64,000 bases of DNA from Escherichia phage nieznany, in the sequence record NC_052659.1; one strand, 5' to 3'. Shown here piece by piece: positions 1-62,028 of the stretch; position 1 is the first letter of the stretch; the number at the start of each line of letters is the position of its first letter. The translations under genes and the position numbers were made by a program. The notes beneath the pieces were generated by a model that had not been told where the DNA came from, searched no databases, and was given only the letters and a program-made list of their open reading frames with translations.

Positions 1-243
1 GTGACCAAAGATCCAATTAATTTGCCTCCTAATGTGGTAGCTTGTTGTGGGAGTGGTTCAGGGGAAGTGGAGCCTGTATCCCGTTGGGAATTAACTAAAG
101 CTGTTTCAAAACGAAACGGTGAAGTTTTGAATATTGATATCGAGCAAATATGGACTTCTCCAGCAGCTAAATGGAATGATCCGAATGGTTGGGACTTGTT
201 CTTCTGGGATAATGAAACTGATGATGAGGTATTTTTAAAATGA
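1..243 (+). CDS. hypothetical protein (possibly 5' truncated at window edge)
   Basis: ORF begins at base 1 with GTG; no recognisable motif. Confidence 0.25.
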   Translation: MTKDPINLPPNVVACCGSGSGEVEPVSRWELTKAVSKRNGEVLNIDIEQIWTSPAAKWNDPNGWDLFFWDNETDDEVFLK

Positions 244-426
244 AATACTTGTTGGTTGTGTTTGAAAATATTTGTTTTGCAATAGGGTTGTTTGTTGTAA
301 TTTTTGTATTGACAAGCGTAATCAACGGCAGTAAAGTGAGTTTATACCGAGATGGAGAGCAACTTTATTGCTTCTCTGGAGATTTCAAACACAGATGTAT
401 TAATAGCCAAAACGAGGAAAGCAAAT

Positions 427-864
427 ATGAAAAAACTAGCCCTGATTTTAATTGGTTGTATCTTTTTAACAGCTTGCGAGGATGAGACAAATCCTGCACA
501 ATACCAACAACCTCCTCAACAATACGCTCAACAAGGATCTGACGGAGATACAACTATTATCAACAATGGTGGCGGTTCTAGTAGTAGCGGTGTTGGTGAG
601 TTTGCTACAGGTATGTTGTTAGGGCATATGATGAGTGGCGGTAGTAATCGTAGCAGTGGGGATTATAACGATAACAGAACGATTATTAATAAGCATTATA
701 ATACACCTAAACCGAAAACTAATTTTTATGGTAAGCCTAAACAAGAGATAAAAACTTATGAAAAGCCGAGACAAACTTTTAAAACAAATAGTAGCTATAC
801 AACTCGTAAATCTTACAATAGCCCTTTAAGTAAAAAGAGTTCATCTCGTAGCAAGCGACGTTAA
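427..864 (+). CDS. putative lipoprotein, Gly/Ser-rich
   Basis: Internal ATG at 427 preceded by AGGAAA; N-terminus MKKLALILIGCIFLTAC = signal peptide with lipobox Cys; track start 352 rejected. Confidence 0.5.
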   Translation: MKKLALILIGCIFLTACEDETNPAQYQQPPQQYAQQGSDGDTTIINNGGGSSSSGVGEFATGMLLGHMMSGGSNRSSGDYNDNRTIINKHYNTPKPKTNFYGKPKQEIKTYEKPRQTFKTNSSYTTRKSYNSPLSKKSSSRSKRR

Positions 865-1475: not shown

Positions 1476-2066
1476 ATGTATACCGAGAGAGACTTGCAAC
1501 TCTTGTGGTGGGAAGTGATGCAGGAAATAAAAGAAGATTTTCCTGTTTACTACAACATGTTACGTGAAGCAGGATATAAAGCTTGTGTTAGAAACAAAGT
1601 GAATAACTCTTTCGGTTGGTGCAACTACCGAGATAAAATTGTTGTTGTAAATTGGCACTTGCATAAGAACTCTACAAGAGATATGATCGTGGATACAATG
1701 AAGCACGAAATTGCTCATGCTATTGATGGTTGTATGGGTAAGTTTAGTAGACACGGTGCTCATTGGCAAAAACTGGCAGCAGAGTTAGGGGCTAATCCTA
1801 AAGCCACTTCCAAAGAGCCGTTGAACCACGAATATAAATATGTTCTTGTTCTGGTAGATAGGTTTGCGACAAGATGTGTTAGAGGTTATAATCGTAAACC
1901 TAATCGCATGTACCCAGGTAAGCAACCTAATATGTGGTTGAAATCAGATAAAGAAGGGACCGAAGGAAAATTATGGTTGTATAAATGGGACGATTGGGTT
2001 AAAGTAGCTAAAGAGTACGGTGTTTCACCATATATAAGAGATGCAGAAGAGGAGAATGAAGAATGA
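1476..2066 (+). CDS. putative SprT-like zinc metalloprotease
   Basis: HEIAH (HExxH) motif followed by a downstream His, as in SprT-like domains. Confidence 0.4.
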   Translation: MYTERDLQLLWWEVMQEIKEDFPVYYNMLREAGYKACVRNKVNNSFGWCNYRDKIVVVNWHLHKNSTRDMIVDTMKHEIAHAIDGCMGKFSRHGAHWQKLAAELGANPKATSKEPLNHEYKYVLVLVDRFATRCVRGYNRKPNRMYPGKQPNMWLKSDKEGTEGKLWLYKWDDWVKVAKEYGVSPYIRDAEEENEE

Positions 2067-3175
2067 CAAGTCCATTTTTAAAAGCAGCTACTGGCGGTCA
2101 GAAGAAGCCTGAAATGAGCGTATTTGCTGCAACAACAGATGCAAGTAAATCTGTATTCGCTCCAAGCGTGTTAGATGCCAGTCCTGTTTATGCACCAGCG
2201 GCACCGCAAGAAGTTCCAGTTTTGCCTTCTATGACCCGACAAGAGATCGAAGAGATTGGGGCAGAGGCAGGAACAACCTTGCGTTCCTTGAATGCCGAGG
2301 TATTAAAACATCAACGTAGTAATCAAGGCGATCAGATGAGTGAACGACTCACAGCTTTGATTAAACAGGCAAAACAACTTGATCCAAACTCTATTAAACA
2401 AAGCAAGGGTATTACTAAACTCATTAAAAAAGTTATGGGTATGAAAGAAGATCTGTTTGGGGAGTTTGATAATGTTAATAACCGTATTGAAGAGTTGGTA
2501 AAAAACCTTCAAATGGATATTCGCAAAGAAGAAGATTCCTTGGTATATCTTGAAAAGCTACATCAAGCTATTGGACAATATGCTGCAAGTTTGAACCGAG
2601 ATATGCAGCTTCTAACAGCAACCTATGAAAAAGAAGAACAAGCTTTGGCTGCTCTTCCAGAAGATGCAGTAGAACAGCGACAAGTGATCCGAGATACTTT
2701 GGATCTTCTGGAGATTCGTATTGCAGATTTAAAAGCATTGCGCCTACTGTGTGTCCAAATGGGACCGCGTGTACAAGGTATGCAAAAAGTTTCTGCAAGC
2801 TTAATGCGATCTGCGCGTAACATAGTAAATAATGTTATTCCTGCTTACTCTGCTAACTTCTCAATGTATATCGAGAGCTTACGTCAAATGAAAGCAGCAG
2901 AGACGCAGAATAACGTTCTTGATGAATTTAACCTGGCAATTAAACTGGGTAGCGATCTTGCCACACAGAATCAGATCGAAGCAGCAGCACTGGCTAACCG
3001 TCAAGTGTTGGATATTGAAACTCTGCGTCACGATCAGGAAAACTTGGTTAAGATGTTGGAAGAAACTAACCGCATCAATACGGAAGCCCGTGCTGCTCGT
3101 GTTGATTATATTAATGAAGTTCAATCTTTGGAAGACGGGATGGTAGCTGCTGTGAAACGAGGGCTTGGTAAATGA
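2063..3175 (+). CDS. alpha-helical coiled-coil protein, possibly TelA-like (toxic anion resistance family)
   Basis: 370 aa, predicted helical with coiled-coil character; sits upstream of vWA and TerD genes; family assignment is inference only. Confidence 0.35.
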   Translation: MTSPFLKAATGGQKKPEMSVFAATTDASKSVFAPSVLDASPVYAPAAPQEVPVLPSMTRQEIEEIGAEAGTTLRSLNAEVLKHQRSNQGDQMSERLTALIKQAKQLDPNSIKQSKGITKLIKKVMGMKEDLFGEFDNVNNRIEELVKNLQMDIRKEEDSLVYLEKLHQAIGQYAASLNRDMQLLTATYEKEEQALAALPEDAVEQRQVIRDTLDLLEIRIADLKALRLLCVQMGPRVQGMQKVSASLMRSARNIVNNVIPAYSANFSMYIESLRQMKAAETQNNVLDEFNLAIKLGSDLATQNQIEAAALANRQVLDIETLRHDQENLVKMLEETNRINTEARAARVDYINEVQSLEDGMVAAVKRGLGK

Positions 3176-5881: not shown

Positions 5882-6484
5882 ATGACTGATAAAATTTCCC
5901 TGAAAAAAGGCTCTAGCGAAAAAATTTCCCTGAAGAAAGTTGCTCCGGCTCTGAAAGAACTGCGCCTGGAATTCTCTTGGAAATCTGATTCTAAACTGGA
6001 TCTGGATGTAAGTGCACTGGTTTGTCGTCACAATGCCGCTGGCAATCCTGAAATGCTGTCTGCACGTCATCTGGTTTGCTATGCTAACAAGTTTGATCCT
6101 GAACGTTCTACCTTCGCTGGTGACGATGTTCGTGATGGGACTGGCAGCATGGAGCAGATTGATATTACTCTGGCTAAAATCTCTCCTGATGCACAAGAGA
6201 TTGCCTTTGTTCTGACCATTGATGATGATACAGGTCTGAAACGTTTTGGTCATGCTTCTGAAGGTATGCTTAAAATCTTCGACTCCGAGCGTAATGTGGA
6301 AATTCTGGATTTTGACTTCCTGGCTCCTGAAGTAGCTGGCAACACAATCTGCCACGTGGCTTCCCTGGTTCGTGAAGATGGAGAATGGAAGCTGAAAGCA
6401 TATGGTGTAGGTAAAGCTGGTCTGGATATTTGCGATGTGGTGATGGCCTTCGGTGGTAAAAAAGAATGGTATGAATGTCCATAA
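5882..6484 (+). CDS. TerD-domain protein (tellurite resistance TerD/TerE/TerZ family)
   Basis: N-terminal repeated KISLKKG/KISLKKV, central LTIDDDTG acidic patch, C-terminal GEWK.KAYGVGKAGLD, about 200 aa: pattern of TerD family. Confidence 0.7.
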   Translation: MTDKISLKKGSSEKISLKKVAPALKELRLEFSWKSDSKLDLDVSALVCRHNAAGNPEMLSARHLVCYANKFDPERSTFAGDDVRDGTGSMEQIDITLAKISPDAQEIAFVLTIDDDTGLKRFGHASEGMLKIFDSERNVEILDFDFLAPEVAGNTICHVASLVREDGEWKLKAYGVGKAGLDICDVVMAFGGKKEWYECP

Positions 6485-6502: not shown

Positions 6503-6523
6503 GAGGGGGAGAAGTCCCCCCTC
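6503..6523 (+). terminator. GC-rich hairpin after TerD gene (weak intrinsic terminator)
   Basis: GAGGGGGAG..TCCCCCCTC stem; no clear T-run. Confidence 0.3.
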
Positions 6524-6524
6524 T

Positions 6525-6553
6525 TGCAATAAAGCCTCTATCGTGTTATACTA
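6525..6553 (+). promoter_or_regulatory. sigma70-like promoter (TTGCAA-17-TATACT)
   Basis: -35 TTGCAA 6525..6530, 17-nt spacer, -10 TATACT 6548..6553; RBS AGGAGG and TTG start at 6585 follow. Confidence 0.5.
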
Positions 6554-6584
6554 GAAGTTCGTTAACTTAAAAAGGAGGCAAAAT

Positions 6585-7106
6585 TTGCTGATAAAAAACT
6601 TTGTAACAGTTGCGTTACTATCCTTAACTGCTTTTACATTTACACCTGTTGTGGCGAAAGCCGAAGCTGCAAACGTAAAAACCGCTAAAGTAGTTCACAA
6701 ATGTACAAAGCAATATAATGATAAAATTCTATTAGCTTGTGCAATTTACGCAGAAGGTCGCGGTCTGGGTAAAAAAGGAATGAATGCCGTTGGGAATGTG
6801 GTAATCAACAGAAGAAATGATGCCTACTTCCCTAACACAGTCAAGGGAGTCTTGTTCCAGAAAGGGCAATTCTCATATGCGAAAACTTTTAACGTGACAG
6901 AGAAAGATAAGTGGCAGGAAGCAAAAGCAATAGCGGAGCGTTTACTTTATTTAGAGAAACATTTTCCTGAATTGCGGTCTGTTTTAGATGTTACTAAAGG
7001 TGCTCTATACTTCAAGAAACGGAATATAAGGACACACTGGGAGCGTGATATGCGTCTTGTTTATCGAGATAAAGTGCATGGTTTCTATCTACCAAAGGGG
7101 AGTTAA
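6585..7106 (+). CDS. SleB/CwlJ-like cell wall hydrolase with N-terminal signal sequence (endolysin candidate)
   Basis: AIYAEGRG...GMNAVGNVVINRR...VLFQKGQFSYA matches Hydrolase_2 signature; hydrophobic N-terminus. Confidence 0.55.
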   Translation: MLIKNFVTVALLSLTAFTFTPVVAKAEAANVKTAKVVHKCTKQYNDKILLACAIYAEGRGLGKKGMNAVGNVVINRRNDAYFPNTVKGVLFQKGQFSYAKTFNVTEKDKWQEAKAIAERLLYLEKHFPELRSVLDVTKGALYFKKRNIRTHWERDMRLVYRDKVHGFYLPKGS

Positions 7107-7107
7107 A

Positions 7108-7392
7108 ATGCAAGAAGATAATACTGTTGTTGTAGCAAGTTACCTGGTTGTCGGTCTTACCGAAGAGGACGTATACTACACCCGTAAACATTTGGAAGCA
7201 TACGCTACTTTGTTTATGGAAGATGAAAAGGATGTAGATAAATATAGCATTGATATGATCAACGACAGTATTTATCCTTGTATGGTTCTTAAAGTAGATG
7301 CTGTGCTGTGGGAGCGTTTTGCAAGGACTCATGATGCTGTAGAATGCTCCGCAGTAATGTCTCAAAACAACATTTTAGGGGAGATTCACTGA
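7108..7392 (+). CDS. hypothetical protein
   Basis: ATG at 7108 after AGGGGAG; track start 7045 rejected. Confidence 0.4.
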   Translation: MQEDNTVVVASYLVVGLTEEDVYYTRKHLEAYATLFMEDEKDVDKYSIDMINDSIYPCMVLKVDAVLWERFARTHDAVECSAVMSQNNILGEIH

Positions 7393-7622
7393 TGGGAGAA
7401 GTCATTGAAGTAAATTTTCGCACTAAACAAAAAGTGCAAAAATATGTTGTTATTAAAAACATTTGCGTTGTCTGCTTCAATACTGTAATATACGATTCAC
7501 GACGCGGAGAAAACGAAAATGAACCTTACATTGAAATTTCTAAGAACAAAGGTCAATGTATTTGTAAGAACTGTGCAGTAGCTATTAAGGAGGTTGTAAA
7601 TGAAAACGCTTGGGACCAATGA
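7392..7622 (+). CDS. putative zinc-ribbon protein
   Basis: ATGA overlap with upstream stop; two CxxC pairs (CVVC, CKNC). Confidence 0.35.
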   Translation: MGEVIEVNFRTKQKVQKYVVIKNICVVCFNTVIYDSRRGENENEPYIEISKNKGQCICKNCAVAIKEVVNENAWDQ

Positions 7623-7791
7623 AACTGGCGAGATCTCTCTTCAAGAAGTGACAAACGACAAGCTGATTAAACTACGGGATGTAGCTCGTGACCATCTCCA
7701 AGAATCTTTTAAAGAATATATGGAAGCACGAGATCGTGTCATCCAAATCCAACAAGAAATGATTAAACGTGGGATTGTAGCTGACAGTTAA
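7600..7791 (+). CDS. hypothetical protein
   Basis: ATG after AAGGAGG. Confidence 0.35.
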   Translation: MKTLGTNETGEISLQEVTNDKLIKLRDVARDHLQESFKEYMEARDRVIQIQQEMIKRGIVADS

Positions 7792-7807: not shown

Positions 7808-8371
7808 ATGATTTATTATATTACTCCCTATCTGACAGGAAATATCGGCAAGGCTATCAATGAAGCTATTGCCGTTCTTCCAGATGATAGTTGGGTGTGC
7901 TTAAGAGATACCGATACAATGTTCCTCCTGCCTGATCAACCATCTATGCTTGAAGAGCTTATTATGTCAAACCCGCCTTTTGATGTAATAGGTGCAACTT
8001 GTAACAGGTTAGGTAGTGGTTATCAGCTTTTCTCTAACCAAATTAACGATGATCCAAATATTCTAAACCATATAGAATATGCTAAGATTGCAAGAGAATA
8101 TCATAAAGTGAGTGTTGAAGAAGTTCCTTTCGGAACACCTCTGGCAGGTTTCTTTTTGCTTTTTAGAAAATCATTGTGGAATGAAATTCCTTTCGAAGAA
8201 AAATCTATCCAATTCGACCTAATTTTCTCTCGCACTTTACATGAAAAAGGAAAAAGGTTAGGATTGATGCGGGGAATGTATCTGTTTCACATTTACAGAT
8301 TAGGTCAAACAAATCCTCAACGGTCTATACATCATTTATTACACTGTCACGATCACAGTAAAACTATCTAG
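7808..8371 (+). CDS. hypothetical protein, possible GT-A-like glycosyltransferase
   Basis: DTD acidic motif; adjacency to other putative glycosyltransferases; weak. Confidence 0.3.
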   Translation: MIYYITPYLTGNIGKAINEAIAVLPDDSWVCLRDTDTMFLLPDQPSMLEELIMSNPPFDVIGATCNRLGSGYQLFSNQINDDPNILNHIEYAKIAREYHKVSVEEVPFGTPLAGFFLLFRKSLWNEIPFEEKSIQFDLIFSRTLHEKGKRLGLMRGMYLFHIYRLGQTNPQRSIHHLLHCHDHSKTI

Positions 8372-8379
8372 GAGAGAAA

Positions 8380-9063
8380 ATGGAAAATATTAAAATCGGA
8401 GTGGGTGTTATCACTGTAGGTGTCCGTCCACTTAAAGACTATCTTGTAACAGATCCACATGCAGATTTTCGAGTATTCAACGATCCAGATCGTAAAGGTG
8501 TAGCTTACGCCAGGAATGAACTTATGCACCAGTTTTATGAAGAAGGTTATGATTATTGGTTTATTTTTGACGACGATTGCTACCCAATCATGGAGGGATG
8601 GGAAACATATTTTGTAGATCAAGCTGTCTCTGGAGGATGGGATTTCTTTGGTATGCCGGAGTATTTCAAAGATAAAGTTGTTGGGAGTAAAGGAGAAGTT
8701 ATTCTCTGGGAACTTGCAATGTGTCAATTTGCAATGTATTCTCGTGCCGTTGTTGAGAAGATGGGTTATTTCCGCCCTTACACTCACGGCTATGGTTTTG
8801 AAGATGCTGAATGGGTACACCGTTTGAAAGCTGCTGGTTTGAATCAGGGCATTCAGGCAATACCTTGTCCACTTCATATCATGGCTTATATCCACCCAGA
8901 CGATGTTTTTGGAAACAATCCTATGCCTTTTGCTAATCTGACAAAAGAAGAGAAAGAAGCTGCTATTGGCATTAACTGGGAAGAATATAAAGCGTCTTTA
9001 GAAGATATTAAAAATGGGAAAATCCGAATTTCTTATGAGGAGGCACTGGCACATGTCAAATAA
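8380..9063 (+). CDS. hypothetical protein, possible GT-A-like glycosyltransferase (DxD)
   Basis: FIFDDDCYP motif resembles DxD of GT-A fold enzymes; weak. Confidence 0.3.
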   Translation: MENIKIGVGVITVGVRPLKDYLVTDPHADFRVFNDPDRKGVAYARNELMHQFYEEGYDYWFIFDDDCYPIMEGWETYFVDQAVSGGWDFFGMPEYFKDKVVGSKGEVILWELAMCQFAMYSRAVVEKMGYFRPYTHGYGFEDAEWVHRLKAAGLNQGIQAIPCPLHIMAYIHPDDVFGNNPMPFANLTKEEKEAAIGINWEEYKASLEDIKNGKIRISYEEALAHVK

Positions 9064-10000
9064 AAAATGGACTAAACTGAAAATTGATGCAAAACCTCAC
9101 AGTGGTTGTGATTATCATCGTATTGTTATACCATTTAACAACAATAATCTTCAACCTAAGAAAGATGTTGTTGTGTTTAACCGTATTCACTCTAAAGGTG
9201 CAGAATATGTTTTGTCCCTGAAACGTCAAGGTGTTAAGATTGTTGTAGATTTAGATGATTTCTACCAACTTAATCCAGAACATTATTTAGCAAGTCTATA
9301 CGAGTCAAACACCCATTCTATTGTAGCTATGGTTAAGCTTGCTGATGTGGTCATTGTGACTACGGAATACTTGGCATATAAGATCCGTCACTTAAATAGG
9401 AATGTTGTTGTGATCCGAAATGCACTTCCTTTTGATAGCGGACAATTCACTTTGTCAAATGATCGTTCATCCGGTACCCCTGTCGTATGGGCTGGCGGTG
9501 CTAGTCACGAACCCGACTTACGACTAGTCTCTAATACTTTCGACGATGACCTTCTTACTATTGCGGGATATGAGGCATCACAGAGCATCACGGGACAAGA
9601 GTGGATTAAGATTCGCAGAAATTTACCAAATGCCAAATATAAAGCCGCTGTAAAAGATTTAGATAATTACATGAGTGTTTACGAGGGTCATGCTATTGCT
9701 ATAGCTCCTCTGGTAGATAACGATTTTAATAATTGTAAAAGTAATCTCAAAATCTTGGAAGCTGGGGCAAAAGGTATTCCAATTGTTTGTTCTAAGGTAT
9801 TACCTTATTTTAACCCTGTAGATGCTCGCGCTGTTGCTTACGCAGAGAATAAAGCAGAATGGCATTACGAAATTGTTAAGCTTCTTCGCAATCCGAACTA
9901 TCGGGAAGATCGTGGCTTGTTCTTAGCGGAACATGTTCGAACACATTATAATCTGGCAGATGCAAACGAATTGCGACGCCAGGTTATTGAAAGTTTGTAG
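9053..10000 (+). CDS. putative GT-B fold glycosyltransferase (paralog 1)
   Basis: ATG 9053 after GAGGAGG; C-terminal NNCKSNLKILEAGAKGIPIVCS resembles GT1/GT4 motif; paralog of 10008..10952. Confidence 0.45.
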   Translation: MSNKKWTKLKIDAKPHSGCDYHRIVIPFNNNNLQPKKDVVVFNRIHSKGAEYVLSLKRQGVKIVVDLDDFYQLNPEHYLASLYESNTHSIVAMVKLADVVIVTTEYLAYKIRHLNRNVVVIRNALPFDSGQFTLSNDRSSGTPVVWAGGASHEPDLRLVSNTFDDDLLTIAGYEASQSITGQEWIKIRRNLPNAKYKAAVKDLDNYMSVYEGHAIAIAPLVDNDFNNCKSNLKILEAGAKGIPIVCSKVLPYFNPVDARAVAYAENKAEWHYEIVKLLRNPNYREDRGLFLAEHVRTHYNLADANELRRQVIESL

Positions 10001-10007
10001 GTGAAGT

Positions 10008-10952
10008 ATGGGACAAATAATTCTTGACAATCGTAACGGAATCAATTATAGTGTCTGCGATTTCCATAGGGTAGTGCTGCCTTACTCAAGGCAGTTCTCT
10101 TCACAACCTAAATACAACGTTTTCGTTTTTAACGGAGTGCCAACAAAAGGTAAAGAGGGCTTTTTAGCCCTTAAAAACCTGGGCTTTAAAATGGTTATGG
10201 ATTTGGATGACTCTTTAGTTATTCCAAAAGGACACATGTTAGAAGGTATTTTTGAATCAGGTATTCGTGAACATTTAAAATGGTTTTTAGAGCACAGTGA
10301 TCTTGTTACAACTACGACACCTGCCTTGCAAGTTGAACTTTCACAATACAATGATAATGTGCACATAATCCCTAATGGACTTCCTTACGATGAAGGTCAA
10401 TTTGTGTTGACCCGTGATCGCTACTCCAAAACTCCATTAGTCTGGGCTGGAAGTGAAACACATAAACAAGATTTGGCTATCTTGCCCGATTTTGGTAAAG
10501 ATCTTACAATATGTGGTTTTCGTAGGGATTCTGAAGTTTTAAGTAGTCGTGAATGGTCTTTAATCAGGGAAAATGTAGCACCAACTTGTGTTTATGAAGG
10601 TGTAAGACCATATGCCAACTACATGGAATCTTACGATGGTCATCAAATCAGTCTTGCACCATTGATCGATAACGTGTTTAATAATGCAAAAAGCAATCTT
10701 AAAATTCTTGAGGCAGGTGCTAAGGGTTTACCTTTAATCTGCTCTCCTCGTGAGAATTATCATACACAAGAGTTTAAAGATTTGTTATTCTTTGCTGAAA
10801 CACCTTCCGAGTGGAAAGATATTACGGAATACTTATTAAGTGCTCCCGATGTTTGCATGGAGAAAGGATTAGCATTAGCTAAGTATGTCAGGACTCATTA
10901 TCACATTGATGTGTTGAATGAGCGTCGTAGACTTTTATTTGAGGAGCTATAA
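10008..10952 (+). CDS. putative GT-B fold glycosyltransferase (paralog 2)
   Basis: Shares CD(Y/F)HR, DLDD, PLVWAG, NNAKSNLKILEAGAKGLPLICS with 9053..10000. Confidence 0.45.
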   Translation: MGQIILDNRNGINYSVCDFHRVVLPYSRQFSSQPKYNVFVFNGVPTKGKEGFLALKNLGFKMVMDLDDSLVIPKGHMLEGIFESGIREHLKWFLEHSDLVTTTTPALQVELSQYNDNVHIIPNGLPYDEGQFVLTRDRYSKTPLVWAGSETHKQDLAILPDFGKDLTICGFRRDSEVLSSREWSLIRENVAPTCVYEGVRPYANYMESYDGHQISLAPLIDNVFNNAKSNLKILEAGAKGLPLICSPRENYHTQEFKDLLFFAETPSEWKDITEYLLSAPDVCMEKGLALAKYVRTHYHIDVLNERRRLLFEEL

Positions 10953-29459: not shown

Positions 29460-29795
29460 TTACCCCTTATTCTGTGTACGTTTAACTATGTCATCTAGCA
29501 TCATTTGGATAGTCGCATTCTTGAGATCCATAATCTTTTCAATTTTTTGCTCAAGGGTGTTGTTATTTGCCATTAATGTAGAGTTAATTTGATTTAGCAT
29601 CTGGGTAAGTTCGGCTTTAGTTGCGTAAGTTGATTCAACAAAGACCAACTTCTTCTCTAGCTCTCGACTTTTCTCCTCCATTTCCTCAAGATCAGAGCCG
29701 AATTTATCCATTTTTTGTTTGAAAAAGAACCAGATGACTCCGATTAAAGGGATAATTGCATCCTTGGCAAGTCCCCATGCTTCTTGAAATTCCAT
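29460..29795 (-). CDS. hypothetical protein with N-terminal TM helix and coiled coil
   Basis: Hydrophobic AIIPLIGVIWFFF then heptad-like charged region. Confidence 0.35.
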   Translation of the reverse strand: MEFQEAWGLAKDAIIPLIGVIWFFFKQKMDKFGSDLEEMEEKSRELEKKLVFVESTYATKAELTQMLNQINSTLMANNNTLEQKIEKIMDLKNATIQMMLDDIVKRTQNKG

Positions 29796-32033: not shown

Positions 32034-33521
32034 TTACACTCCATACTCGTAAGAAATGTTATCAAGGTCAAAAGAAGGGACAACATTATAAGCAGGAACT
32101 ATATTATTCTCTGTATATTTACTGTCATCCTCAGTATTAAGTTTAACATAAACACGAAGAGAAGTCAAGCGTCCAAAAGCAAGTGCTGCATAAATAACAC
32201 CTTTGATTTGATCGTTCGTTACTGAAGAACCTAATTCAAAGTAAGCTTGCAGGTTTTGTAAAGCTTCTACGATGTTTTGTTTTTCTGTTCCACTTAAAGT
32301 TGTTCCGTTGACAGTTTGATAAACAAGTTTTACAGAATACATAGCAGAAGCACCAGGGGAGAAGCGAATAATTTCTTGTCCTCCATCTTCTGTTGTAACT
32401 GTTATGTTAGTTGTTCCGTGTGTCAAAGTGTTGATTGGTTTGGTTTTATAGATAACATTTGCAATTTCTTCAGCACTCCCTCCATAAACTATAGTCTGGA
32501 AAGTCATAGCTGGAGCATGTTCTTGATCATGTAACGTAGGGTTATCATAAATCTTCACCTTAGTAACACCATCTGTAAGTAACAGAGCTTTCACAATAGC
32601 TGCTCGTGTCCCTGCGTTAGCTTCGTCAACGTTGTCATTGAAACGAGAGCGGAATTCTGCGTCTGTCTCAACATCTCGACCAGGGGAAAATGAATAGAAG
32701 TTACCACTATCAAGATAACCTGTAAAGGTAGAAGATATCCCTGTAATAGACTCCACACCAACAGGATTGTATCCTTTCTCTGCTGCAACTACCGGAATCT
32801 CACTCCACTTGGTTCCAACCGGAACACTAGCATAAAATTTAATAGGAGTTACCAGCCCCACTGGAGTATCACTGGTTAAAGAAGTAAAACCAATTGATAA
32901 GTTACCTGAATCAGAAAATACAAGACTACGATCAGCTTCTGTTAAATTCGCCTTGATAAAAGTTTCAAGATCGGTTATAAATGTAGAAGAACCAGGTGCA
33001 AGTGTTTTACTGTTTAGTCCTCCATCCACCGCACTTTGTGCATAAAAAGTAATATTTGGAACACCTGTAGCAGTTGCATTAGCACGAGAGATTTGATAAG
33101 CTGCAATCTTAGCATTCAACATAGTTGGTGTGCTAACATAGTAGTTCATATCACTATCAGAGTTGAAGTAAATATCCGTGCCTAACTCATAAGTCCAAGC
33201 TGCTTTGTTATTACTCTTAACATAGGCATAACCTGTACTTGCTGCTGCCCCTGCTCGATAGAAACCGCGTTTAGAAAAGATTTCGTCAAGATAAATACCT
33301 TCTGCACCATCCAGTGTTTGAGTATTATAAACACCTTGCATACCTTCCCACAATGTGTAATCTGTGTACGCAATTATTCTAAACAGTTGTCCGATCACAG
33401 TATCTTCCGAAGTGGCTGCATCTGCACCAAATGTGTTTTTTACTGCTGTCATATAATTGTTTAGAACATCGTCAAAAGTCGGGATTACAAATCCCGCATC
33501 TGTCAAACCATATTCGTCCAT
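32034..33521 (-). CDS. baseplate J-like protein
   Basis: Size, position and N-terminal character resemble baseplate J/gp6-family wedge proteins (inference). Confidence 0.4.
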   Translation of the reverse strand: MDEYGLTDAGFVIPTFDDVLNNYMTAVKNTFGADAATSEDTVIGQLFRIIAYTDYTLWEGMQGVYNTQTLDGAEGIYLDEIFSKRGFYRAGAAASTGYAYVKSNNKAAWTYELGTDIYFNSDSDMNYYVSTPTMLNAKIAAYQISRANATATGVPNITFYAQSAVDGGLNSKTLAPGSSTFITDLETFIKANLTEADRSLVFSDSGNLSIGFTSLTSDTPVGLVTPIKFYASVPVGTKWSEIPVVAAEKGYNPVGVESITGISSTFTGYLDSGNFYSFSPGRDVETDAEFRSRFNDNVDEANAGTRAAIVKALLLTDGVTKVKIYDNPTLHDQEHAPAMTFQTIVYGGSAEEIANVIYKTKPINTLTHGTTNITVTTEDGGQEIIRFSPGASAMYSVKLVYQTVNGTTLSGTEKQNIVEALQNLQAYFELGSSVTNDQIKGVIYAALAFGRLTSLRVYVKLNTEDDSKYTENNIVPAYNVVPSFDLDNISYEYGV

Positions 33522-33763
33522 TAGTCATCCTCTTTGGTAGATTGTGATCTGCCCCAACGTAAATCAATAAGATTTTTCATGAGGCGAGAAGGGGTTATCA
33601 TGAAAACAAAAGCCCAACCCATCCATTCAGGAATTTCTTTTTCTATTCCTAAAAAGATAAACATGCCTGTCATAACCGACATGCCTACAGCGTTCCAGAC
33701 TTTAGTAGAACTGACTTTATTATCAGGATATGTACAGAACATACCTATTAAAAATTTTCTCAT
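33521..33763 (-). CDS. small two-TM membrane protein, holin-like
   Basis: Two hydrophobic segments and charged C-terminus RWGRSQSTKEDD. Confidence 0.3.
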   Translation of the reverse strand: MRKFLIGMFCTYPDNKVSSTKVWNAVGMSVMTGMFIFLGIEKEIPEWMGWAFVFMITPSRLMKNLIDLRWGRSQSTKEDD

Positions 33764-34068
33764 AGTGCGTTCTCATTACTTTTTAAATCACGAGATACAA
33801 CTAATTCCCCAAGGTCTACAGAACCCGCTGAATGCACAAATACAGCAGCACTAAGACTAATGGCAGTAGTACCTGGGGCAATATCAGCAGGTAGGGAATA
33901 CGCCCTTTGCGTCTCCTTATCATAGATAACCTTATACCCACCCAAATCCACACCAACTGAGAAGTAAACAACCTCAGATTGTTTAACTCCAAAGTGACGG
34001 GCTACTGCTTGTTTATTGGTTAAGATTCCGGTTGAACCTTTACCACCTTGTGAGAACATTTCGTTCAT
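33760..34068 (-). CDS. hypothetical structural protein
   Basis: ORF in baseplate module. Confidence 0.35.
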   Translation of the reverse strand: MNEMFSQGGKGSTGILTNKQAVARHFGVKQSEVVYFSVGVDLGGYKVIYDKETQRAYSLPADIAPGTTAISLSAAVFVHSAGSVDLGELVVSRDLKSNENAL

Positions 34069-34141: not shown

Positions 34142-34423
34142 TCAACAGTCAATACTAGTTGCTGCGTAAGGAGGCGCTAATTTTGTGGGAACGTGACGCT
34201 GTTCGAAAGCAACGCACGCAGCGGCATACAGTGCATCTATTGCAGGCAACGGAAACATCGACAGTGCACAGGCGTCACGAAACTCGTTCAGATCAGGCTT
34301 ATTCCCATAGACTTTAACGGCAATATTTGGTTTAAGGTAAAAACCAGCACTCCACCCATCACCCCGTACTTCAAGAATGGCAACGCCAACCGCTGTAAAT
34401 TTTTCAAATTTCATCTTAAACAT
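34142..34423 (-). CDS. hypothetical protein
   Basis: ORF. Confidence 0.35.
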   Translation of the reverse strand: MFKMKFEKFTAVGVAILEVRGDGWSAGFYLKPNIAVKVYGNKPDLNEFRDACALSMFPLPAIDALYAAACVAFEQRHVPTKLAPPYAATSIDC

Positions 34424-34614
34424 TCTCCATAGATTCGTTGTTATGAGCAGAATTTTCTCGGTCTAACTCTGCCTGTAATGCATTCATCGCTACAGTAAAG
34501 GCAGGAACTTCCTGCCCAGTTAAATTAACTCTCAGCATAAACTGCATGATATTTTGAATAGTTTGCTTATCCATGATTATTCCTATTAAGTTGGGCCAAT
34601 AAGACCGTGTGTGA

Positions 34615-35973
34615 TTAGAGCATCAGATAATTTTTTACATATCTGGCCAATTCTACCAGCGTCATTGTTTCGGTATTTTTGACCGTGCCATCCGCTGTTC
34701 CACCTAGCTGGAAAATTCCAGTTTGTCTGACTGAAAGAACTTTAGTGCTGTTTATAGATATGTTCATATTTCTGAAGTTAAATGCACCTGTCGCATCTTC
34801 GTAACCAATCCACTTCGTTACTCCGGCGACCGGACCCCAGTAAATCCTATGGTCTATATCTAAGTTTATTGCATTACTTTCTTGAAATCTCGCACCAAGA
34901 GTGTTCAGACCATATGTGAAGTTGATTCCAGTTCCGTCAGCCCGTGGACCAAGTTTTATTCCTCCATAACGATGAAGGTTAGACACTGACCCTTCGATTT
35001 TCAGCTGTTGAGTATCTTCCAAATAAGCATTTTTCCAATCTCCGGAAGGGAGCACACCACCCCTTCTAAGCCTCATGCCTATCCACCAGCCAGACTCTCC
35101 TACTGGACGGTTTGAGCCATCTCCAACGTCAATTCCAATACCACAAGCTGAACCACCGTCCGCAGTAGTAACGATAAGACCTCGATAAGGCCCCTCCCCT
35201 GTGGGAAGGTTTTCCGGATGAGGCTGAGATGAGAATGAATTCACCAGATTTAATTCACATCCGACTAACTGAGAAGAGCGCACTCCAGAGCCATCATTAC
35301 CATTCCCTGCCTGACCCCAAAGACCCCAAACCCTCCCGTTTCGTCCTATAGCTTTACCAGAACCATGTACGCCTATAGCGTCAACTGATTTTCCAGAGGT
35401 TAATACATCACCAGCCGAAGATCTTACATAGCCCGAGACACCAATCCCAAAGGCTGACGCCTCCGGTTCAAGGGTTATCGTTCCCTGCATAGCAACATCA
35501 AACCATTTTGTGCCCCCCTCTTCCCTTTTCATCTTGGAGGTTTTTTCTGCCCAGATTAATGGGTAAGGGTTTTCGGCTCCGGCTCCGGGTAAACCGCGCT
35601 TTAATTTGAACCCACCAGAATAGTTCCTAAACGAAGGATATATATTAAACGTTGCATCAACAGTATTGGGCCAATACCCTTCTGGGACAAGGTAGGTAAG
35701 GCCCGTGTTGTTCGCGGCAGTAATAGCTACCGTATTGGATTCGGAATCCCCTTTGGCTCCGCCAGCGAACCCACCCCACGTAATTGGTTTTGGAATATCA
35801 CCAATAAGACCAGCCCCACCTGAATCTTTCAACTGGGTGGCTAAAACCACCCCAGTGTCAGTAAGAAAGTTGGAAACTGTGCTTTTAACAGTCTTATCAG
35901 GTTGATCTAAAACCAGGTAATCTGAACCATTAACTTTTGATGTTTCGGGTAAATTAGTAATTGTAGTTGACAT
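34615..35973 (-). CDS. tail/baseplate structural protein
   Basis: 452 aa Gly-rich beta-rich ORF in tail module. Confidence 0.4.
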   Translation of the reverse strand: MSTTITNLPETSKVNGSDYLVLDQPDKTVKSTVSNFLTDTGVVLATQLKDSGGAGLIGDIPKPITWGGFAGGAKGDSESNTVAITAANNTGLTYLVPEGYWPNTVDATFNIYPSFRNYSGGFKLKRGLPGAGAENPYPLIWAEKTSKMKREEGGTKWFDVAMQGTITLEPEASAFGIGVSGYVRSSAGDVLTSGKSVDAIGVHGSGKAIGRNGRVWGLWGQAGNGNDGSGVRSSQLVGCELNLVNSFSSQPHPENLPTGEGPYRGLIVTTADGGSACGIGIDVGDGSNRPVGESGWWIGMRLRRGGVLPSGDWKNAYLEDTQQLKIEGSVSNLHRYGGIKLGPRADGTGINFTYGLNTLGARFQESNAINLDIDHRIYWGPVAGVTKWIGYEDATGAFNFRNMNISINSTKVLSVRQTGIFQLGGTADGTVKNTETMTLVELARYVKNYLML

Positions 35974-59307: not shown

Positions 59308-59652
59308 TTATTCAGCAATAATACCTTTTTCTTGCAGTGTTTTAATATATGTTTGTAAACCTAGAACCTTTCGTCTATCTTGCTCCCAAAGAGCATTGTT
59401 TTGAGTTTGGTTGTTAACAACTTCAGATCTACTAACCCCTTTTGCAATTTGATTTTTAGTGTATGGCACAGGTGTCGATACTTTATCCATCAAGTCCGAA
59501 TCTGGACCTTTAACCTTTTCTATGGCTACAGCCTTACACTCATCAATAAGAACTGGGGAAACTTTTGTTGATGATGAACAACCCGTCATCATTAGGGGCA
59601 AAGCAAGACATACTGCCAGAATTAGTTTTTGCATAATTCGTTGTATCCTCAT
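59308..59652 (-). CDS. o-spanin (Rz1-like outer-membrane lipoprotein)
   Basis: Signal peptide with lipobox LMMTGC; overlaps 3' end of i-spanin in another frame; alternative ATG at 59634. Confidence 0.5.
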   Translation of the reverse strand: MRIQRIMQKLILAVCLALPLMMTGCSSSTKVSPVLIDECKAVAIEKVKGPDSDLMDKVSTPVPYTKNQIAKGVSRSEVVNNQTQNNALWEQDRRKVLGLQTYIKTLQEKGIIAE

Positions 59653-59935
59653 TGATCGTTTGTTTCTTCTTCTCTAAATCTGCTTTTAATTGTGCATTGT
59701 TTTTAGACAAGTTGTTTATTTGAGTATTTAATAATGCTCTTTCTTCATCTGCTCTTTTTTGAAGAACATCAAAATCTTGTTTTGCTTTTGCTTGGGCTGC
59801 TTGATATACTTGCGTTTGATAGGCAACACCATCTTTGTAGCCAGACTCACGTATCTTGTTATAAGCAAACATTCCGGCAAGAATAAGAACAACAATTAAA
59901 ACAAAACTTAATACAGTTTTAGTCTTTAGATTCAT
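59543..59935 (-). CDS. i-spanin (Rz-like)
   Basis: N-terminal TM helix then periplasmic coiled coil; overlapped by o-spanin. Confidence 0.5.
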   Translation of the reverse strand: MNLKTKTVLSFVLIVVLILAGMFAYNKIRESGYKDGVAYQTQVYQAAQAKAKQDFDVLQKRADEERALLNTQINNLSKNNAQLKADLEKKKQTINEDTTNYAKTNSGSMSCFAPNDDGLFIINKSFPSSY

Positions 59936-60800: not shown

Positions 60801-60879
60801 TGGAGGCGGGAATTGGATTTGAACCAATGATCTCCAGCATATGAAACTGGCGAGGACGACCAGACTCCTCTATCCCGCT
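60801..60879 (-). tRNA. tRNA-Met or tRNA-Ile2 (anticodon CAT), CCA encoded
   Basis: Manual cloverleaf: acceptor AGCGGGA/TCCCGCC (1-72 mismatch), anticodon loop TTCATAT, T-arm ATTGG-TTCAAAT-CCAAT, discriminator U. Confidence 0.6.
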
Positions 60880-60885
60880 ATTAGG

Positions 60886-60955
60886 TATCCCGTGCTGGAT
60901 TCGAACCAGCATCACAATAAGCTGTGGAACTCTTATCCTGTAAGTCTAACGGGAA
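60886..60955 (-). tRNA. tRNA-like gene with non-canonical anticodon region (anticodon undetermined)
   Basis: Canonical T-arm GCTGG-TTCGAAT-CCAGC and 6-bp acceptor stem, but no D-arm and only a 5-bp stem with 10-nt loop where the anticodon arm should be. Confidence 0.35.
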
Positions 60956-60957
60956 AC

Positions 60958-61031
60958 TGGTTGTTTCGACAAGAATCGAACTTGTGTCTCACGATTATCA
61001 GTCGTGGGTTCTACCATTGAACTACGAAACA
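60958..61031 (-). tRNA. tRNA-Ile (anticodon GAT), CCA encoded
   Basis: Acceptor CGAAACA/TGTTTCG, D-arm GTTC-AATGGTA-GAAC, anticodon loop CTGATAA, T-loop TTCGATT. Confidence 0.8.
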
Positions 61032-61037
61032 TTAAAT

Positions 61038-61114
61038 TGGTCGGAATTGCAGGATTCGAACCTGCGACCCTACGCTCCCAAAGCGTATGCTCTACCAAAC
61101 TGAGCTAAATTCCG
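61038..61114 (-). tRNA. tRNA-Pro (anticodon TGG), CCA encoded
   Basis: Acceptor AATTCCG/CGGAATT, D-arm GCTC..GAGC, anticodon loop TTTGGGA, T-loop TTCGAAT. Confidence 0.8.
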
Positions 61115-61207
61115 TCATAACATTCTAAAGGTACACCGCAAAAGAAAGTGTTCGGCGGCTCCTCGTTTTTAACTTCACACTTGAGGTAGTGACTCACCTT
61201 TGTTATA

Positions 61208-61283
61208 TGGCTGGTCTGTCTGGATTTGAACCAAACCTACGACAGTCAAAGTGTCGTGTGCTACCGGACTACACTACAAACCA
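61208..61283 (-). tRNA. tRNA-Gln (anticodon TTG), CCA encoded
   Basis: Acceptor TGGTTTG/CAGACCA, anticodon stem CGACA/TGTCG, loop CTTTGAC, T-loop TTCAAAT. Confidence 0.7.
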
Positions 61284-61381
61284 ATAAATCATTTAATGAA
61301 GGGCAACCAGAAGAGGTGTGAGAGAAGGAGAAAACCATGAGTAAAAGAGAAAGTTTTCTGGCAACCCTTTATTAAATAATT

Positions 61382-61455
61382 TGGAGCGTTCTACGAGGAT
61401 CGAACTCGTGCCGCCGACTTGGAAGGACGGAATGCTACCGCTACACCAAGAACGC
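61382..61455 (-). tRNA. tRNA-Gly (anticodon TCC), CCA encoded
   Basis: Acceptor GCGTTCT/AGAACGC, anticodon loop CTTCCAA, discriminator U as typical of bacterial tRNA-Gly. Confidence 0.7.
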
Positions 61456-61466
61456 CCTACATCTTT

Positions 61467-61496
61467 ACTATACTACATTTTACTATTGGTTGTCAA
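61467..61496 (-). promoter_or_regulatory. sigma70-like promoter for tRNA sub-cluster 1 (TTGACA-18-TATAGT), minus strand
   Basis: Plus TGTCAA 61491..61496 within CTATTGACAA motif; -10 about 6 nt upstream of tRNA-Gly 5' end. Confidence 0.45.
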
Positions 61497-61846: not shown

Positions 61847-61852
61847 AAAGCT

Positions 61853-61929: not shown

Positions 61930-61936
61930 ATAATTC

Positions 61937-62023: not shown

Positions 62024-62028
62024 TAATT

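What the first reader, a model, noticed from the sequence alone, without database searches (positions are those of the whole stretch)
6585..7106. SleB-type cell-wall hydrolase with signal sequence as the likely lysin, far from the spanin pair
The only recognisable peptidoglycan hydrolase in the window is a SleB/CwlJ-like protein with a hydrophobic N-terminus, behind its own sigma70-like promoter in the early region. The i/o-spanin pair lies some 53 kb away next to the terminase, and the only holin-like candidate (33521..33763) is inside the baseplate module. The lysis functions therefore appear dispersed, and the lysin may be secretory or SAR-type.
Basis: partly seen in the sequence, partly recalled or inferred. 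Interest (0 to 1): 0.45.

Follow-up and report, generated by a model that had tools for sequence, protein, structure and literature searches.

The report
Exported SleB-type phage wall hydrolase
This gene of a phAPEC8-like coliphage encodes a small cell-wall-cutting enzyme with a secretion signal; it is real but already annotated in this well-sampled phage group, and it is not the only lysin, because near-identical genomes also carry a classic T4-type lysozyme just outside the window.

Summary
ORF 6585..7106 (+, 173 aa, TTG start) is a Pfam Hydrolase_2 (SleB/CwlJ) protein. It has the family's catalytic glutamate (E57) and an N-terminal Sec-type signal peptide, with predicted cleavage at AKA|EA after residue 26. 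It sits behind a hairpin and an extended -10 sigma70-type promoter that are conserved in relatives at 74-79% identity. The overlapped i/o-spanin pair next to the large terminase is also real.

The window comes from a Phapecoctavirus (phAPEC8-like, about 150 kb). Three near-identical genomes (AV125, Ro121c4YLVW, tuntematon) carry a cytoplasmic T4 gp e-type lysozyme about 22 kb beyond the window's right end. About 130 Stephanstirmvirinae records match it at 60% identity or more. It is 166 aa, keeps the Glu/Asp/Thr triad, and is about 50% identical to T4 e. The SleB-type enzyme is therefore not the sole lysin and is probably not the principal one.

Signal-peptide SleB-like homologues accompany a different canonical endolysin in rV5/PVP-SE1-like and T5-like phages. 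The same dispersed layout has been published for Vequintavirinae.

Most likely this is a holin-independent, Sec-exported accessory muralytic enzyme. A cleavable signal peptide is favoured over a SAR domain. Verdict: ordinary and already known. The in vivo role remains untested.

The parts
6503..6523 (+). GC-rich hairpin after the upstream TerD-domain gene (terminator-like; no T-run follows)
   Evidence: Fold of -14.4 kcal/mol, z=-2.45. The stem is kept through compensatory changes in phiWec179, Eryne and FKP3. The terminator scan did not call it because the T tract is missing.
6524..6552 (+). Sigma70-type promoter: -35 TTGCAA (6524-6529), 17-nt spacer, extended -10 TG-n-TATACT (6544-6552)
   Evidence: Promoter scan, 9 of 12 matches plus TG. 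TTGCAA is invariant, and the -10 varies only within TAnAnT (TATACT, TACAAT, TAGAAT) in relatives at 74-79% identity.
6572..6587 (+). Ribosome-binding site AAGGAGG (6572-6578) and TTG start codon (6585-6587)
   Evidence: Read from the sequence. AGGAGG and the TTG start are invariant in four diverged relatives.
6585..6662 (+). Signal peptide, residues 1-26 (n: MLIK; h: NFVTVALLSLTAFTF; c: TPVVAKA; predicted cleavage AKA|EA)
   Evidence: Alignment A1 shows invariant P21, small -3/-1 residues in all 16 homologues and a variable -2. The uncharged stretch has no Gly. Distant homologues have unrelated but classic signal peptides. Cleavage itself is inferred, not shown.
6663..7106 (+). Mature SleB/CwlJ-family (Hydrolase_2) catalytic domain, about 147 aa, 17.0 kDa, pI 9.9. 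Catalytic Glu57 codon at 6753-6755; invariant Cys40 and Cys52.
   Evidence: Pfam E=2e-17. E57 is invariant and aligns with the Glu of the YGESRGE motif of SleB 4f55/4fet.
59543..59935 (-). i-spanin (130 aa, N-terminal TMD)
   Evidence: PHROG 4297 'Rz-like spanin', E=9.6e-35. TMD at residues 7-25.
59308..59652 (-). o-spanin (114 aa, lipoprotein signal with LMMTGC). It overlaps the i-spanin gene and abuts the large terminase gene.
   Evidence: PHROG 1267 'Rz-like spanin', E=8.4e-21. Sequence.
33521..33763 (-). 80-aa small membrane protein, a weak holin candidate (function not established)
   Evidence: PHROG 1322 'membrane protein', E=4.7e-27, with no Pfam or NCBIfam hit. One clear hydrophobic segment and one short one. 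A full relative genome holds many other small membrane proteins.

Best explanation
What the gene encodes:
- It encodes a 173-aa pre-protein. A cleavable Sec-type signal peptide (about residues 1-26) is followed by a single SleB/CwlJ-family (Pfam Hydrolase_2) catalytic domain with the family's catalytic glutamate (E57).
- It is transcribed from its own host-type extended -10 promoter directly after a hairpin, and translated from a conserved TTG start.

How it most likely works:
- The Sec system exports the protein to the periplasm without any holin. There it cuts peptidoglycan glycan strands, probably as a lytic transglycosylase like SleB.
- It is not the phage's only lysin. The genus also carries a cytoplasmic T4 gp e-type lysozyme elsewhere in the genome, which is the canonical holin-dependent endolysin.
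- The SleB-type enzyme is therefore most likely a conserved accessory, holin-independent muralytic enzyme that weakens or helps degrade the wall. The overlapped spanin pair next to the terminase completes envelope disruption.

Shown versus inferred:
- Shown here: the gene, the domain, the catalytic residue, the signal-peptide features, the promoter conservation, the second lysin in near-identical genomes, and the recurrence of this pairing in other phage lineages.
- Inferred: export and cleavage, the bond cleaved, the timing, and the actual contribution to lysis.
For: Domain and catalytic residue:
- Pfam Hydrolase_2 at E=2e-17. PDB SleB at E=4.5e-10, with E57 on the Glu of the YGESRGE motif.
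- That glutamate is essential in SleB (PMC12331253).

Export signal:
- Invariant P21 and a conserved (-3,-1) small-residue site with variable -2 in 16 of 16 homologues.
- Homologues at about 36% identity in rV5-like, PVP-SE1-like and T5-like phages carry unrelated classic signal peptides...LSLPVVA|APK...TTPVLA|KEN...FSSQA|SHD.
- About 124 of the 150 best family representatives have an N-terminal hydrophobic signal or anchor.

Second lysin:
- A 166-aa PF00959 lysozyme with E15/D24/T30 and no hydrophobic N-terminus.
- It is present in AV125, Ro121c4YLVW and tuntematon at a syntenic site.
- About 131 records match it at 60% identity or more, against about 130 for the SleB-like protein.
- PMC10793346 reports both domains in a Phapecoctavirus.

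Precedent:
- Vequintavirinae SleB-like CB7_83 has a signal peptide and was toxic on expression in E. coli (data not shown in the paper). Spanins sit next to the terminase and there is no cassette (PMC7344957).
- T5-like phages have a separate hol-lys pair plus a SleB-like gene (PMC3326045).
- A SleB-fold T6SS effector rounds and bursts E. coli, and the E-to-Q mutant is inactive (PMC11148199).
Against: - There is no experimental evidence for this protein or for any Stephanstirmvirinae homologue.
- The T4-type lysozyme lies outside the window. Its presence in the source genome is inferred from near-identical relatives.
- That lysozyme's role as the main endolysin is also unproven in this genus.
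- The SleB-like gene is the one conserved across Stephanstirmvirinae and Vequintavirinae, while the partner lysin is swapped (GH24, GH19, M15 peptidase). That pattern could equally mean the SleB-like enzyme is the core lysin.
- Bacillus SleB needs muramic delta-lactam in its substrate (my knowledge), which E. coli peptidoglycan lacks, so the bond and substrate specificity here are unknown.
- An active soluble periplasmic muralytic enzyme made before the end of infection would need some restraint, and none was identified.
Confidence: 0.55

Rival explanations
1. The SleB-type enzyme is the principal endolysin, a secretory endolysin held inactive in the periplasm until a holin or pinholin depolarises the membrane, as with Lys44 of Oenococcus phage fOg44. 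On this reading the T4-type lysozyme is redundant or has another role.
For: - RefSeq and PHROGs label it 'endolysin'.
- It is the lysin conserved across Stephanstirmvirinae and Vequintavirinae, while the second lysin differs between lineages.
- In Certrevirus a class II holin candidate overlaps the SleB-like gene, and CR3_087 was 'implicated in host lysis' (PMC7344957).
- The homologue was toxic on expression in E. coli (same paper, data not shown).
Against: - A well-conserved T4 e-type lysozyme with an intact catalytic triad is kept in about 130 related genomes.
- In T5-like phages the SleB-like gene coexists with a separate holin-lysozyme pair (PMC3326045). The characterised T5 endolysin is an L-Ala-D-Glu peptidase (PDB 2MXZ, cited in PMC7344957).
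- No holin-like gene adjoins the SleB-like gene here. The downstream ORFs at 7108..7791 are soluble.
Confidence: 0.2
2. The exported enzyme is not a lysis protein. It remodels the host sacculus during infection, for example by shortening glycan strands, allowing cell enlargement, altering envelope stress or excluding superinfecting phages. It would be expressed with early or middle genes.
For: - It lies in the replication and metabolism block, next to TerD-domain and glycosyltransferase genes.
- It has its own host-type promoter and a conserved weak TTG start.
- In rV5-like and PVP-SE1-like phages the homologue sits directly upstream of rIIA-rIIB. In phage naam it overlaps the rIIA start.
- Chromosomal SleB homologues of Gram-negative bacteria act in peptidoglycan remodelling and stress tolerance (Zymomonas preprint).
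- The enzyme always accompanies another, canonical endolysin.
Against: - Expression timing is unknown. Similar extended -10 promoters also precede structural genes (for example NC_052654.1 near 50007), so promoter type does not mean early.
- Toxicity of the homologue and of a SleB-fold effector fits a lytic role at least as well.
- No specific remodelling function can be named from sequence.
Confidence: 0.2
3. The N-terminus is not cleaved. It would act as a signal-anchor-release (SAR) domain or a permanent membrane anchor, making this a SAR-type endolysin triggered by a pinholin. This concerns the export mode and could combine with either functional reading.
For: - The uncharged stretch is 19 residues (6-24), long enough to span a membrane and rich in Thr, Ser and Ala.
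- The N-terminal sequence is unusually well conserved within the subfamily.
- A Pakpunavirus homologue (PaoP5_032) has an N-terminal hydrophobic segment with no evident cleavage site.
Against: - There is no glycine, against 4-5 in the P1 Lyz and R21 SAR domains.
- Pro at -6 and small residues at -3/-1 are conserved in 16 of 16 homologues, with a free -2 position.
- Distant homologues have short, classic signal peptides with 13-16-residue h-regions.
Confidence: 0.15

Closest known systems
SleB-like cell-wall hydrolases of Vequintavirinae (CB7_83, CR3_087, rV5-like naam_76, PVP-SE1-like homologues)
   Same: - Same architecture: signal peptide plus a single Hydrolase_2 domain.
- Same H-x-C ... 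L-A-C cysteine pair before the Y-x-E-[AS]-R motif.
- 36% identity over the full length.
- Spanin pair next to the large terminase, no classic lysis cassette, and a second unrelated lysin in the genome (PMC7344957; PMC12210895).
   Different: - The neighbours differ: rIIA-rIIB or a class II holin candidate there, against a TerD-domain gene and glycosyltransferases here.
- No rIIA or rIIB homologue was found by tblastn in the window or in the first 150 kb of the relative NC_052654.1.
- The partner lysin there is GH19, an M15 peptidase or another type. Here it is a T4 e-type GH24 lysozyme.
Bacillus spore cortex-lytic enzymes SleB and CwlJ (PDB 4f55, 4fet)
   Same: - Homologous catalytic domain with the catalytic glutamate in the same motif.
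- SleB is a lytic transglycosylase (PMC12331253).
   Different: - It lacks SleB's N-terminal peptidoglycan-binding domain.
- It scores 52.5 bits against the 236.5-bit cut-off of the spore_SleB equivalog TIGR02869.
- The host has no spore cortex or muramic delta-lactam, so the substrate must be ordinary Gram-negative peptidoglycan.
SleB-like periplasmic hydrolase of T5-like phages (e.g. Salmonella phage Th1 gp070, AKFV33 ORF81)
   Same: - Signal peptide plus Hydrolase_2 domain, 36% identity over the domain.
- Encoded away from the phage's holin-endolysin pair, in the early-gene region (PMC3326045).
   Different: - A different cysteine pattern: C-x-A-K-N and C-K-V-V instead of H-K-C and L-A-C.
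- The protein is shorter (149 aa).
- The partner endolysin is next to a holin.
Secretory and SAR endolysins (Lys44 of fOg44; P1 Lyz, R21)
   Same: A muralytic enzyme that reaches the wall through the Sec system without a holin-made hole. This is a functional analogy (my knowledge; the references are listed in PMC10282059).
   Different: - The catalytic folds are unrelated.
- The SAR hallmarks are not seen here: a Gly/Ala-rich, uncleaved N-terminal domain.
- No evidence was found of a restraint mechanism or a pinholin partner.
T4 gp e lysozyme (relevant to the second lysin, outside the window)
   Same: The relatives' 166-aa protein is about 50% identical to T4 e, with the E11/D20/T26 equivalents and no export signal. 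As in T4, it is encoded away from the spanins and from any holin.
   Different: - No homologue of the T4 holin T or of rIIA/rIIB was detected.
- The holin of this phage group is unidentified.

Membership tests
Pfam Hydrolase_2 (PF07486; SleB/CwlJ-type cell-wall hydrolase domain) | Profile match above the curated gathering score | tested here: met
   64.1 bits against a cut-off of 27, E=2e-17, covering profile positions 3-100 of 100.
Pfam Hydrolase_2 (PF07486; SleB/CwlJ-type cell-wall hydrolase domain) | Catalytic glutamate in the Y-x-E-[AS]-R-G motif | tested here: met
   E57 (YAEGRG) is invariant in 16 homologues and aligns with the Glu of YGESRGE in 4f55/4fet. That glutamate is essential in SleB (PMC12331253).
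Pfam Hydrolase_2 (PF07486; SleB/CwlJ-type cell-wall hydrolase domain) | SleB-like three-dimensional fold | tested here: inconclusive
   The AlphaFold2 model from the 16-sequence alignment was poor (mean pLDDT 55.3, pTM 0.44), so no fold search was run.
Spore cortex-lytic enzyme SleB proper (NCBIfam TIGR02869 equivalog) | Equivalog score above the cut-off, and an N-terminal peptidoglycan-binding domain | tested here: not met
   52.5 bits against a cut-off of 236.5. Only profile positions 79-159 of 201 are matched. The protein is a signal peptide plus a catalytic domain only.
Secretory (signal-peptide) endolysin | Tripartite n-h-c signal with a (-3,-1) signal-peptidase I site | tested here: met
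   MLIK / NFVTVALLSLTAFTF / TPVVAKA|EA. P21 is invariant, and every one of the 16 homologues offers small -3/-1 residues with a variable -2. This is rule-based inspection; no SignalP was available.
Secretory (signal-peptide) endolysin | Sec-dependent export and processing, and being required for host lysis | not testable with these tools
   These need expression, fractionation and phage knockout experiments. The only hint is the toxicity of homologue CB7_83 in E. coli, reported as data not shown (PMC7344957).
SAR endolysin | Weakly hydrophobic, Gly/Ala-rich N-terminal TMD with no signal-peptidase site | tested here: not met
A conserved AxA-type site is present.
SAR endolysin | Membrane tethering in energised cells and release on depolarisation | not testable with these tools
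   This requires fractionation with and without an uncoupler.
Classic holin-endolysin lysis cassette | Endolysin gene adjacent to a holin gene (and usually spanins) | tested here: not met
   The neighbours are a TerD-domain gene upstream and three soluble small ORFs followed by glycosyltransferases downstream. The spanins lie 52 kb away. The T4-type lysozyme in relatives is flanked by glutaredoxin, a 49-aa basic protein and PhoH.
Two-component spanin (Rz/Rz1-type) | An i-spanin with an N-terminal TMD, an o-spanin lipoprotein with a lipobox, and adjacent or overlapping genes | tested here: met
   PHROG 4297 and 1267, TMD at 7-25, lipobox LMMTGC, and genes overlapping at 59543-59652.

The most novel reading that the evidence does not exclude
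The signal-peptide SleB-like enzyme may be a conserved, non-redundant periplasmic factor shared by phAPEC8-like, rV5/PVP-SE1-like and T5-like phages. On this reading it is made before lysis and has a job distinct from the canonical endolysin. Possible jobs are pre-conditioning or remodelling the sacculus, or superinfection exclusion. The invariant Cys40-Cys52 pair just upstream of the catalytic Glu57 might control its activity. This would explain why it always accompanies a second, frequently swapped endolysin.
Probability: 0.2. Interest if true: 0.55.

Novelty: already known. Interest (0 to 1): 0.2.

Why it matters
The practical value is mainly for annotation.

- In Phapecoctavirus genomes the SleB-type gene is variously called 'endolysin', 'cell wall hydrolase SleB' or 'hypothetical'. 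In at least one RefSeq record it is truncated at an internal ATG, which removes the signal peptide and the catalytic glutamate.
- The T4-type lysozyme is sometimes labelled 'baseplate hub + tail lysozyme'.
- Papers disagree on whether the genus has one or two lysins.
- Anyone mining these therapeutic coliphages for enzybiotics should know that the protein is a secreted pre-protein. The mature domain starts near Glu27. A second, soluble lysin exists.

Biologically, one question is open and testable. Several unrelated groups of large virulent phages of Gram-negative hosts keep an exported SleB-type enzyme alongside a conventional endolysin, and the reason is unknown.

Tried and rejected
1. Structure: the AlphaFold2 model from alignment A1 was too poor to use (mean pLDDT 55.3), so no fold search was run. 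Family membership rests on sequence profiles instead.

2. Timing from promoter type: rejected. A scan for the same -35/extended -10 pattern found 14 sites in a relative's genome against about 3 in shuffles. These include one upstream of tail genes, so a sigma70-like promoter does not mean early expression.

The holin remains unidentified.

4. Holin by hydrophobicity: the scan returns many small membrane proteins across the genome. None is adjacent to either lysin, so no candidate can be preferred. The 'hol-like chemotaxis' PHROG protein is a soluble coiled coil.

5. Literature on Phapecoctavirus transcription timing: one search returned only irrelevant papers. 'phAPEC8' combined with 'SleB' found nothing. 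PMC3415495, the SleB structure paper, is not held.

6. A tail-associated lysozyme in the window: none was detected in the hub, spike, Dit-like, plug or tape-measure proteins.

7. A lipoprotein signal on the SleB-like protein: rejected, because there is no Cys in the signal region.
Full report
**What is at the coordinates**

ORF 6585..7106 on the + strand is real: 173 aa, a TTG start, and a stop codon included in the end coordinate. AAGGAGG lies 6 nt upstream of the TTG. The protein matches Pfam PF07486 (Hydrolase_2, the SleB/CwlJ cell-wall hydrolase domain) at E=2e-17, 64.1 bits against a cut-off of 27. It also matches PHROG 938 'endolysin' at E=1e-18.

A profile built from 16 homologues hits the crystallised SleB catalytic domains of Bacillus cereus and B. 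anthracis (4f55, 4fet) at E=4.5e-10 and 1.6e-9. Its invariant Glu57 (YAEGRG) falls on the Glu of the SleB motif YGESRGE. That glutamate is the essential catalytic residue of the SleB lytic transglycosylase (PMC12331253). The residue numbers I recall, E157 and E151, are from memory.

The protein is not an equivalog of spore SleB. It scores 52.5 bits against the 236.5-bit cut-off of TIGR02869 and has no N-terminal peptidoglycan-binding domain.

**Where the window comes from**

The region is 99.8-100% identical to Escherichia phages of the genus Phapecoctavirus (phAPEC8-like, Stephanstirmvirinae, about 150 kb): AV125, ESCO13, ESCO25 and Ro121c4YLVW. Window 39001-64000 is 100.0% identical to phage tuntematon.

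In these records the gene is annotated 'endolysin', 'putative cell wall hydrolase SleB' or 'hypothetical protein'. RefSeq NC_052654.1 calls only a 108-aa version from an internal ATG (Met66). That version lacks both the signal sequence and Glu57. The conserved ribosome-binding site and TTG start in diverged relatives show that the long form is correct.

**The N-terminus**

Residues 1-26 read MLIK / NFVTVALLSLTAFTF / TPVVAKA, followed by EAAN.

- In the alignment of 16 homologues (56-98% identity) Pro21 is invariant.
- Every sequence offers small residues at -3 and -1 (AKA, AQA, GIA, ATA, VHA, AYA, ALA, SEA, VDA and others) three to six residues after that proline.
- The -2 position varies freely. 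This is the pattern expected of a signal-peptidase I site under selection.
- The uncharged stretch contains no glycine.
- Homologues at only about 36% identity carry unrelated but textbook signal peptides:
  - rV5-like naam_76: ...ALLSLPVVA|APK
  - PVP-SE1-like SPLA5a: ...SLTTTPVLA|KEN
  - T5-like Th1 gp070: MKAALLLVAALTFSFSSQA|SHD
- Among the 150 best representatives of the wider family (17,504 representatives at E<=0.001), about 124 begin with a hydrophobic signal, lipoprotein signal or anchor.

Export to the periplasm is therefore a conserved property. I favour a cleavable Sec signal peptide (about 0.8) over a SAR or uncleaved anchor (about 0.15). Cleavage itself is inferred. The predicted mature protein is 147 aa, 17.0 kDa, pI 9.9. 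Two invariant cysteines, C40 and C52, lie just before the catalytic Glu and are shared with the Vequintavirinae homologues. This fits a periplasmic disulfide, but I could not test it.

**Transcription signals**

A GC-rich hairpin sits at 6503-6523 (-14.4 kcal/mol, z=-2.45). It is followed directly by TTGCAA, 17 nt, then TG-n-TATACT. In phiWec179, Eryne and FKP3 (74-79% identity):

- the stem is kept through compensatory changes;
- TTGCAA is invariant;
- the -10 varies only within TAnAnT (TATACT, TACAAT, TAGAAT);
- AGGAGG and the TTG start are invariant.

That does not make it 'early'. The same kind of promoter also precedes tail genes in a relative, and I found no transcriptome data.

**The rest of the lysis equipment in the window**

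The i-spanin (59543..59935, -) and o-spanin (59308..59652, -, lipobox LMMTGC) overlap and abut the large terminase gene. The 80-aa membrane protein at 33521..33763 exists. It matches only PHROG 1322 'membrane protein'. It is not the only small membrane protein in the window (240..485 is another), and the genome holds many more. The hub, spike, Dit-like, plug and tape-measure proteins show no peptidoglycan-hydrolase domain.

**The decisive point: a second lysin outside the window**

Walking through the full annotation of Ro121c4YLVW turned up a 166-aa 'lysozyme' (gp220). It matches PF00959 at E=7e-11. Its sequence, [39 protein letters not shown]..., carries the T4 lysozyme triad as E15/D24/T30 and has no hydrophobic N-terminus.

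The same gene sits at the syntenic position in AV125, where it is mislabelled 'baseplate hub + tail lysozyme'. It is also present in tuntematon. That places it about 22 kb beyond the right end of the window.

In the phage collection about 131 records match it at 60% identity or more. About 130 records match the SleB-like protein at that level. This is consistent with the two travelling together through the subfamily, although I did not match records one by one. A genome announcement already states that a Phapecoctavirus encodes two lytic proteins, PF00959 and PF07486 (PMC10793346). Another paper counted only the Hydrolase_2 protein (PMC10282059).

The lysozyme's neighbours are glutaredoxin, a 49-aa basic protein and PhoH, not a holin.

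**Comparative picture**

Hydrolase_2 proteins occur in 1,221 phage records. Wherever I looked, the signal-peptide form accompanies a different, conventional endolysin.

[quoted passage not shown] There the SleB-like gene lies directly upstream of rIIA-rIIB.
- Certrevirus CB7 has a T5-type peptidase plus SleB-like CB7_83. That protein has a signal peptide and was toxic on expression in E. coli (data not shown in the paper). The spanins lie next to the terminase, there is no classic cassette, and a class II holin candidate overlaps the SleB-like gene (PMC7344957).
- T5-like phages have a holin-lysozyme pair plus the SleB-like gene (PMC3326045).

A SleB-fold T6SS effector rounds and bursts E. coli when active in the periplasm and is inactivated by E-to-Q (PMC11148199). 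So this fold can attack ordinary Gram-negative peptidoglycan. A chromosomal SleB homologue in Zymomonas acts in wall remodelling.

**Mechanism I commit to (confidence about 0.55)**

The gene makes a Sec-exported, signal-peptide-cleaved SleB-family glycan-strand-cleaving enzyme, probably a lytic transglycosylase. It reaches the sacculus without a holin. It serves as an accessory muralytic enzyme alongside the cytoplasmic T4-type endolysin, with the spanin pair finishing envelope disruption.

Rivals:

- It is the principal, secretory endolysin (0.2).
- It is a non-lytic wall-remodelling or exclusion factor made before lysis (0.2).
- Orthogonally, it is SAR-type or anchored rather than cleaved (0.15).

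The fact that the SleB-like gene is the conserved partner while the other lysin is swapped between lineages is compatible with all three readings and is the main residual uncertainty. The holin is unidentified. No homologues of T4 T, rIIA or rIIB were found.

**Verdict**

Everything seen here is already annotated or published for this genus or its sister subfamily. The gene, the signal peptide in homologues, the dispersed layout with spanins beside the terminase, and the two-lysin content are all covered. Dispersed lysis genes are also the T4 norm. Novelty: already known. Interest: low (0.2). What remains open is experimental: why several lineages of large virulent phages keep an exported SleB-type enzyme in addition to a standard endolysin.

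Noticed in passing
L002 12373-12699 (NC_052654.1 gp023), equivalent to window 6780-7106: RefSeq record NC_052654.1 annotates the SleB-like gene as a 108-aa 'endolysin' starting at the internal Met66. That version lacks the signal peptide and the catalytic Glu57. The conserved ribosome-binding site and TTG start in diverged relatives indicate the 173-aa form is correct.
   Followed up: yes
L005 6358-6858 (AV125 122357-122857), outside the window: In AV125 the stand-alone 166-aa T4 e-type lysozyme is labelled 'baseplate hub + tail lysozyme'. Papers disagree on whether Phapecoctavirus has one or two lysins (PMC10282059 against PMC10793346).
   Followed up: yes
window 2063-3175 and 5882-6484, plus TerC just left of the window in relatives: A cluster of tellurite-resistance-type genes lies directly upstream of the SleB-like gene. 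It includes a TerD-domain protein at 5882..6484 (Pfam E=3.2e-28), a 370-aa 'tellurite resistance' protein, and a TerC membrane protein in relatives. Four glycosyltransferase genes follow downstream (7808-10952).
   Followed up: partly
window 6702-6704 and 6738-6740 (Cys40, Cys52): Two invariant cysteines sit 17 and 5 residues before the catalytic Glu57. They are shared with rV5-like and PVP-SE1-like homologues (H-x-C ... L-A-C). T5-like homologues have a different cysteine pair. This may be a periplasmic, possibly regulatory, disulfide.
   Followed up: partly
window 1-64000, compared with AV125 and tuntematon: The window matches no single database phage throughout. The SleB region is 100% identical to AV125 but 98.5% to tuntematon, while 39001-64000 is 100.0% identical to tuntematon. 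The coordinate offsets also differ by about 2 kb. This suggests a mosaic or an unsampled close relative.
   Followed up: partly
window 33760-34068 and 34142-35973: A 102-aa ORF matches only the N-terminal anchor region of many tailspike families (PHROG 7992, E=1.2e-59). It is followed by small ORFs and a 452-aa protein. Ro121c4YLVW has a single 762-aa tail spike at this locus, so this looks like a swapped or fragmented receptor-binding cassette.
   Followed up: no
L008 133-1596 and L010 1003-1605 (Eryne, FKP3): In Justusliebigvirus relatives, HNH endonuclease genes are inserted just upstream of the TerD-domain gene that precedes the SleB-like gene. They are absent from the window.
   Followed up: no
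window 60801-62813: A cluster of 10 tRNA genes on the minus strand (Met x2, Ile, Pro, Gln, Gly, Thr, Asn, Ser, Arg) lies just beyond the spanin genes.
   Followed up: yes
window 352-864 (probable true start near 427, MKKLALILIGCIFLTAC) and 29460-29795: There are two likely lipoprotein genes. One is a small lipoprotein with a Gly/Ser-rich body near the left end. The other is a 111-aa protein in the tail-fibre module that is annotated 'lipoprotein' in relatives. Their functions are unknown.
   Followed up: no
L007 2995-5474 and L013 2444-5200: In Vequintavirus and Seunavirus the SleB-like gene lies immediately upstream of rIIA-rIIB, and in phage naam it overlaps the rIIA start. This hints at co-expression with membrane-integrity or lysis-timing genes. 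No rII homologues were found in Phapecoctavirus.
   Followed up: partly
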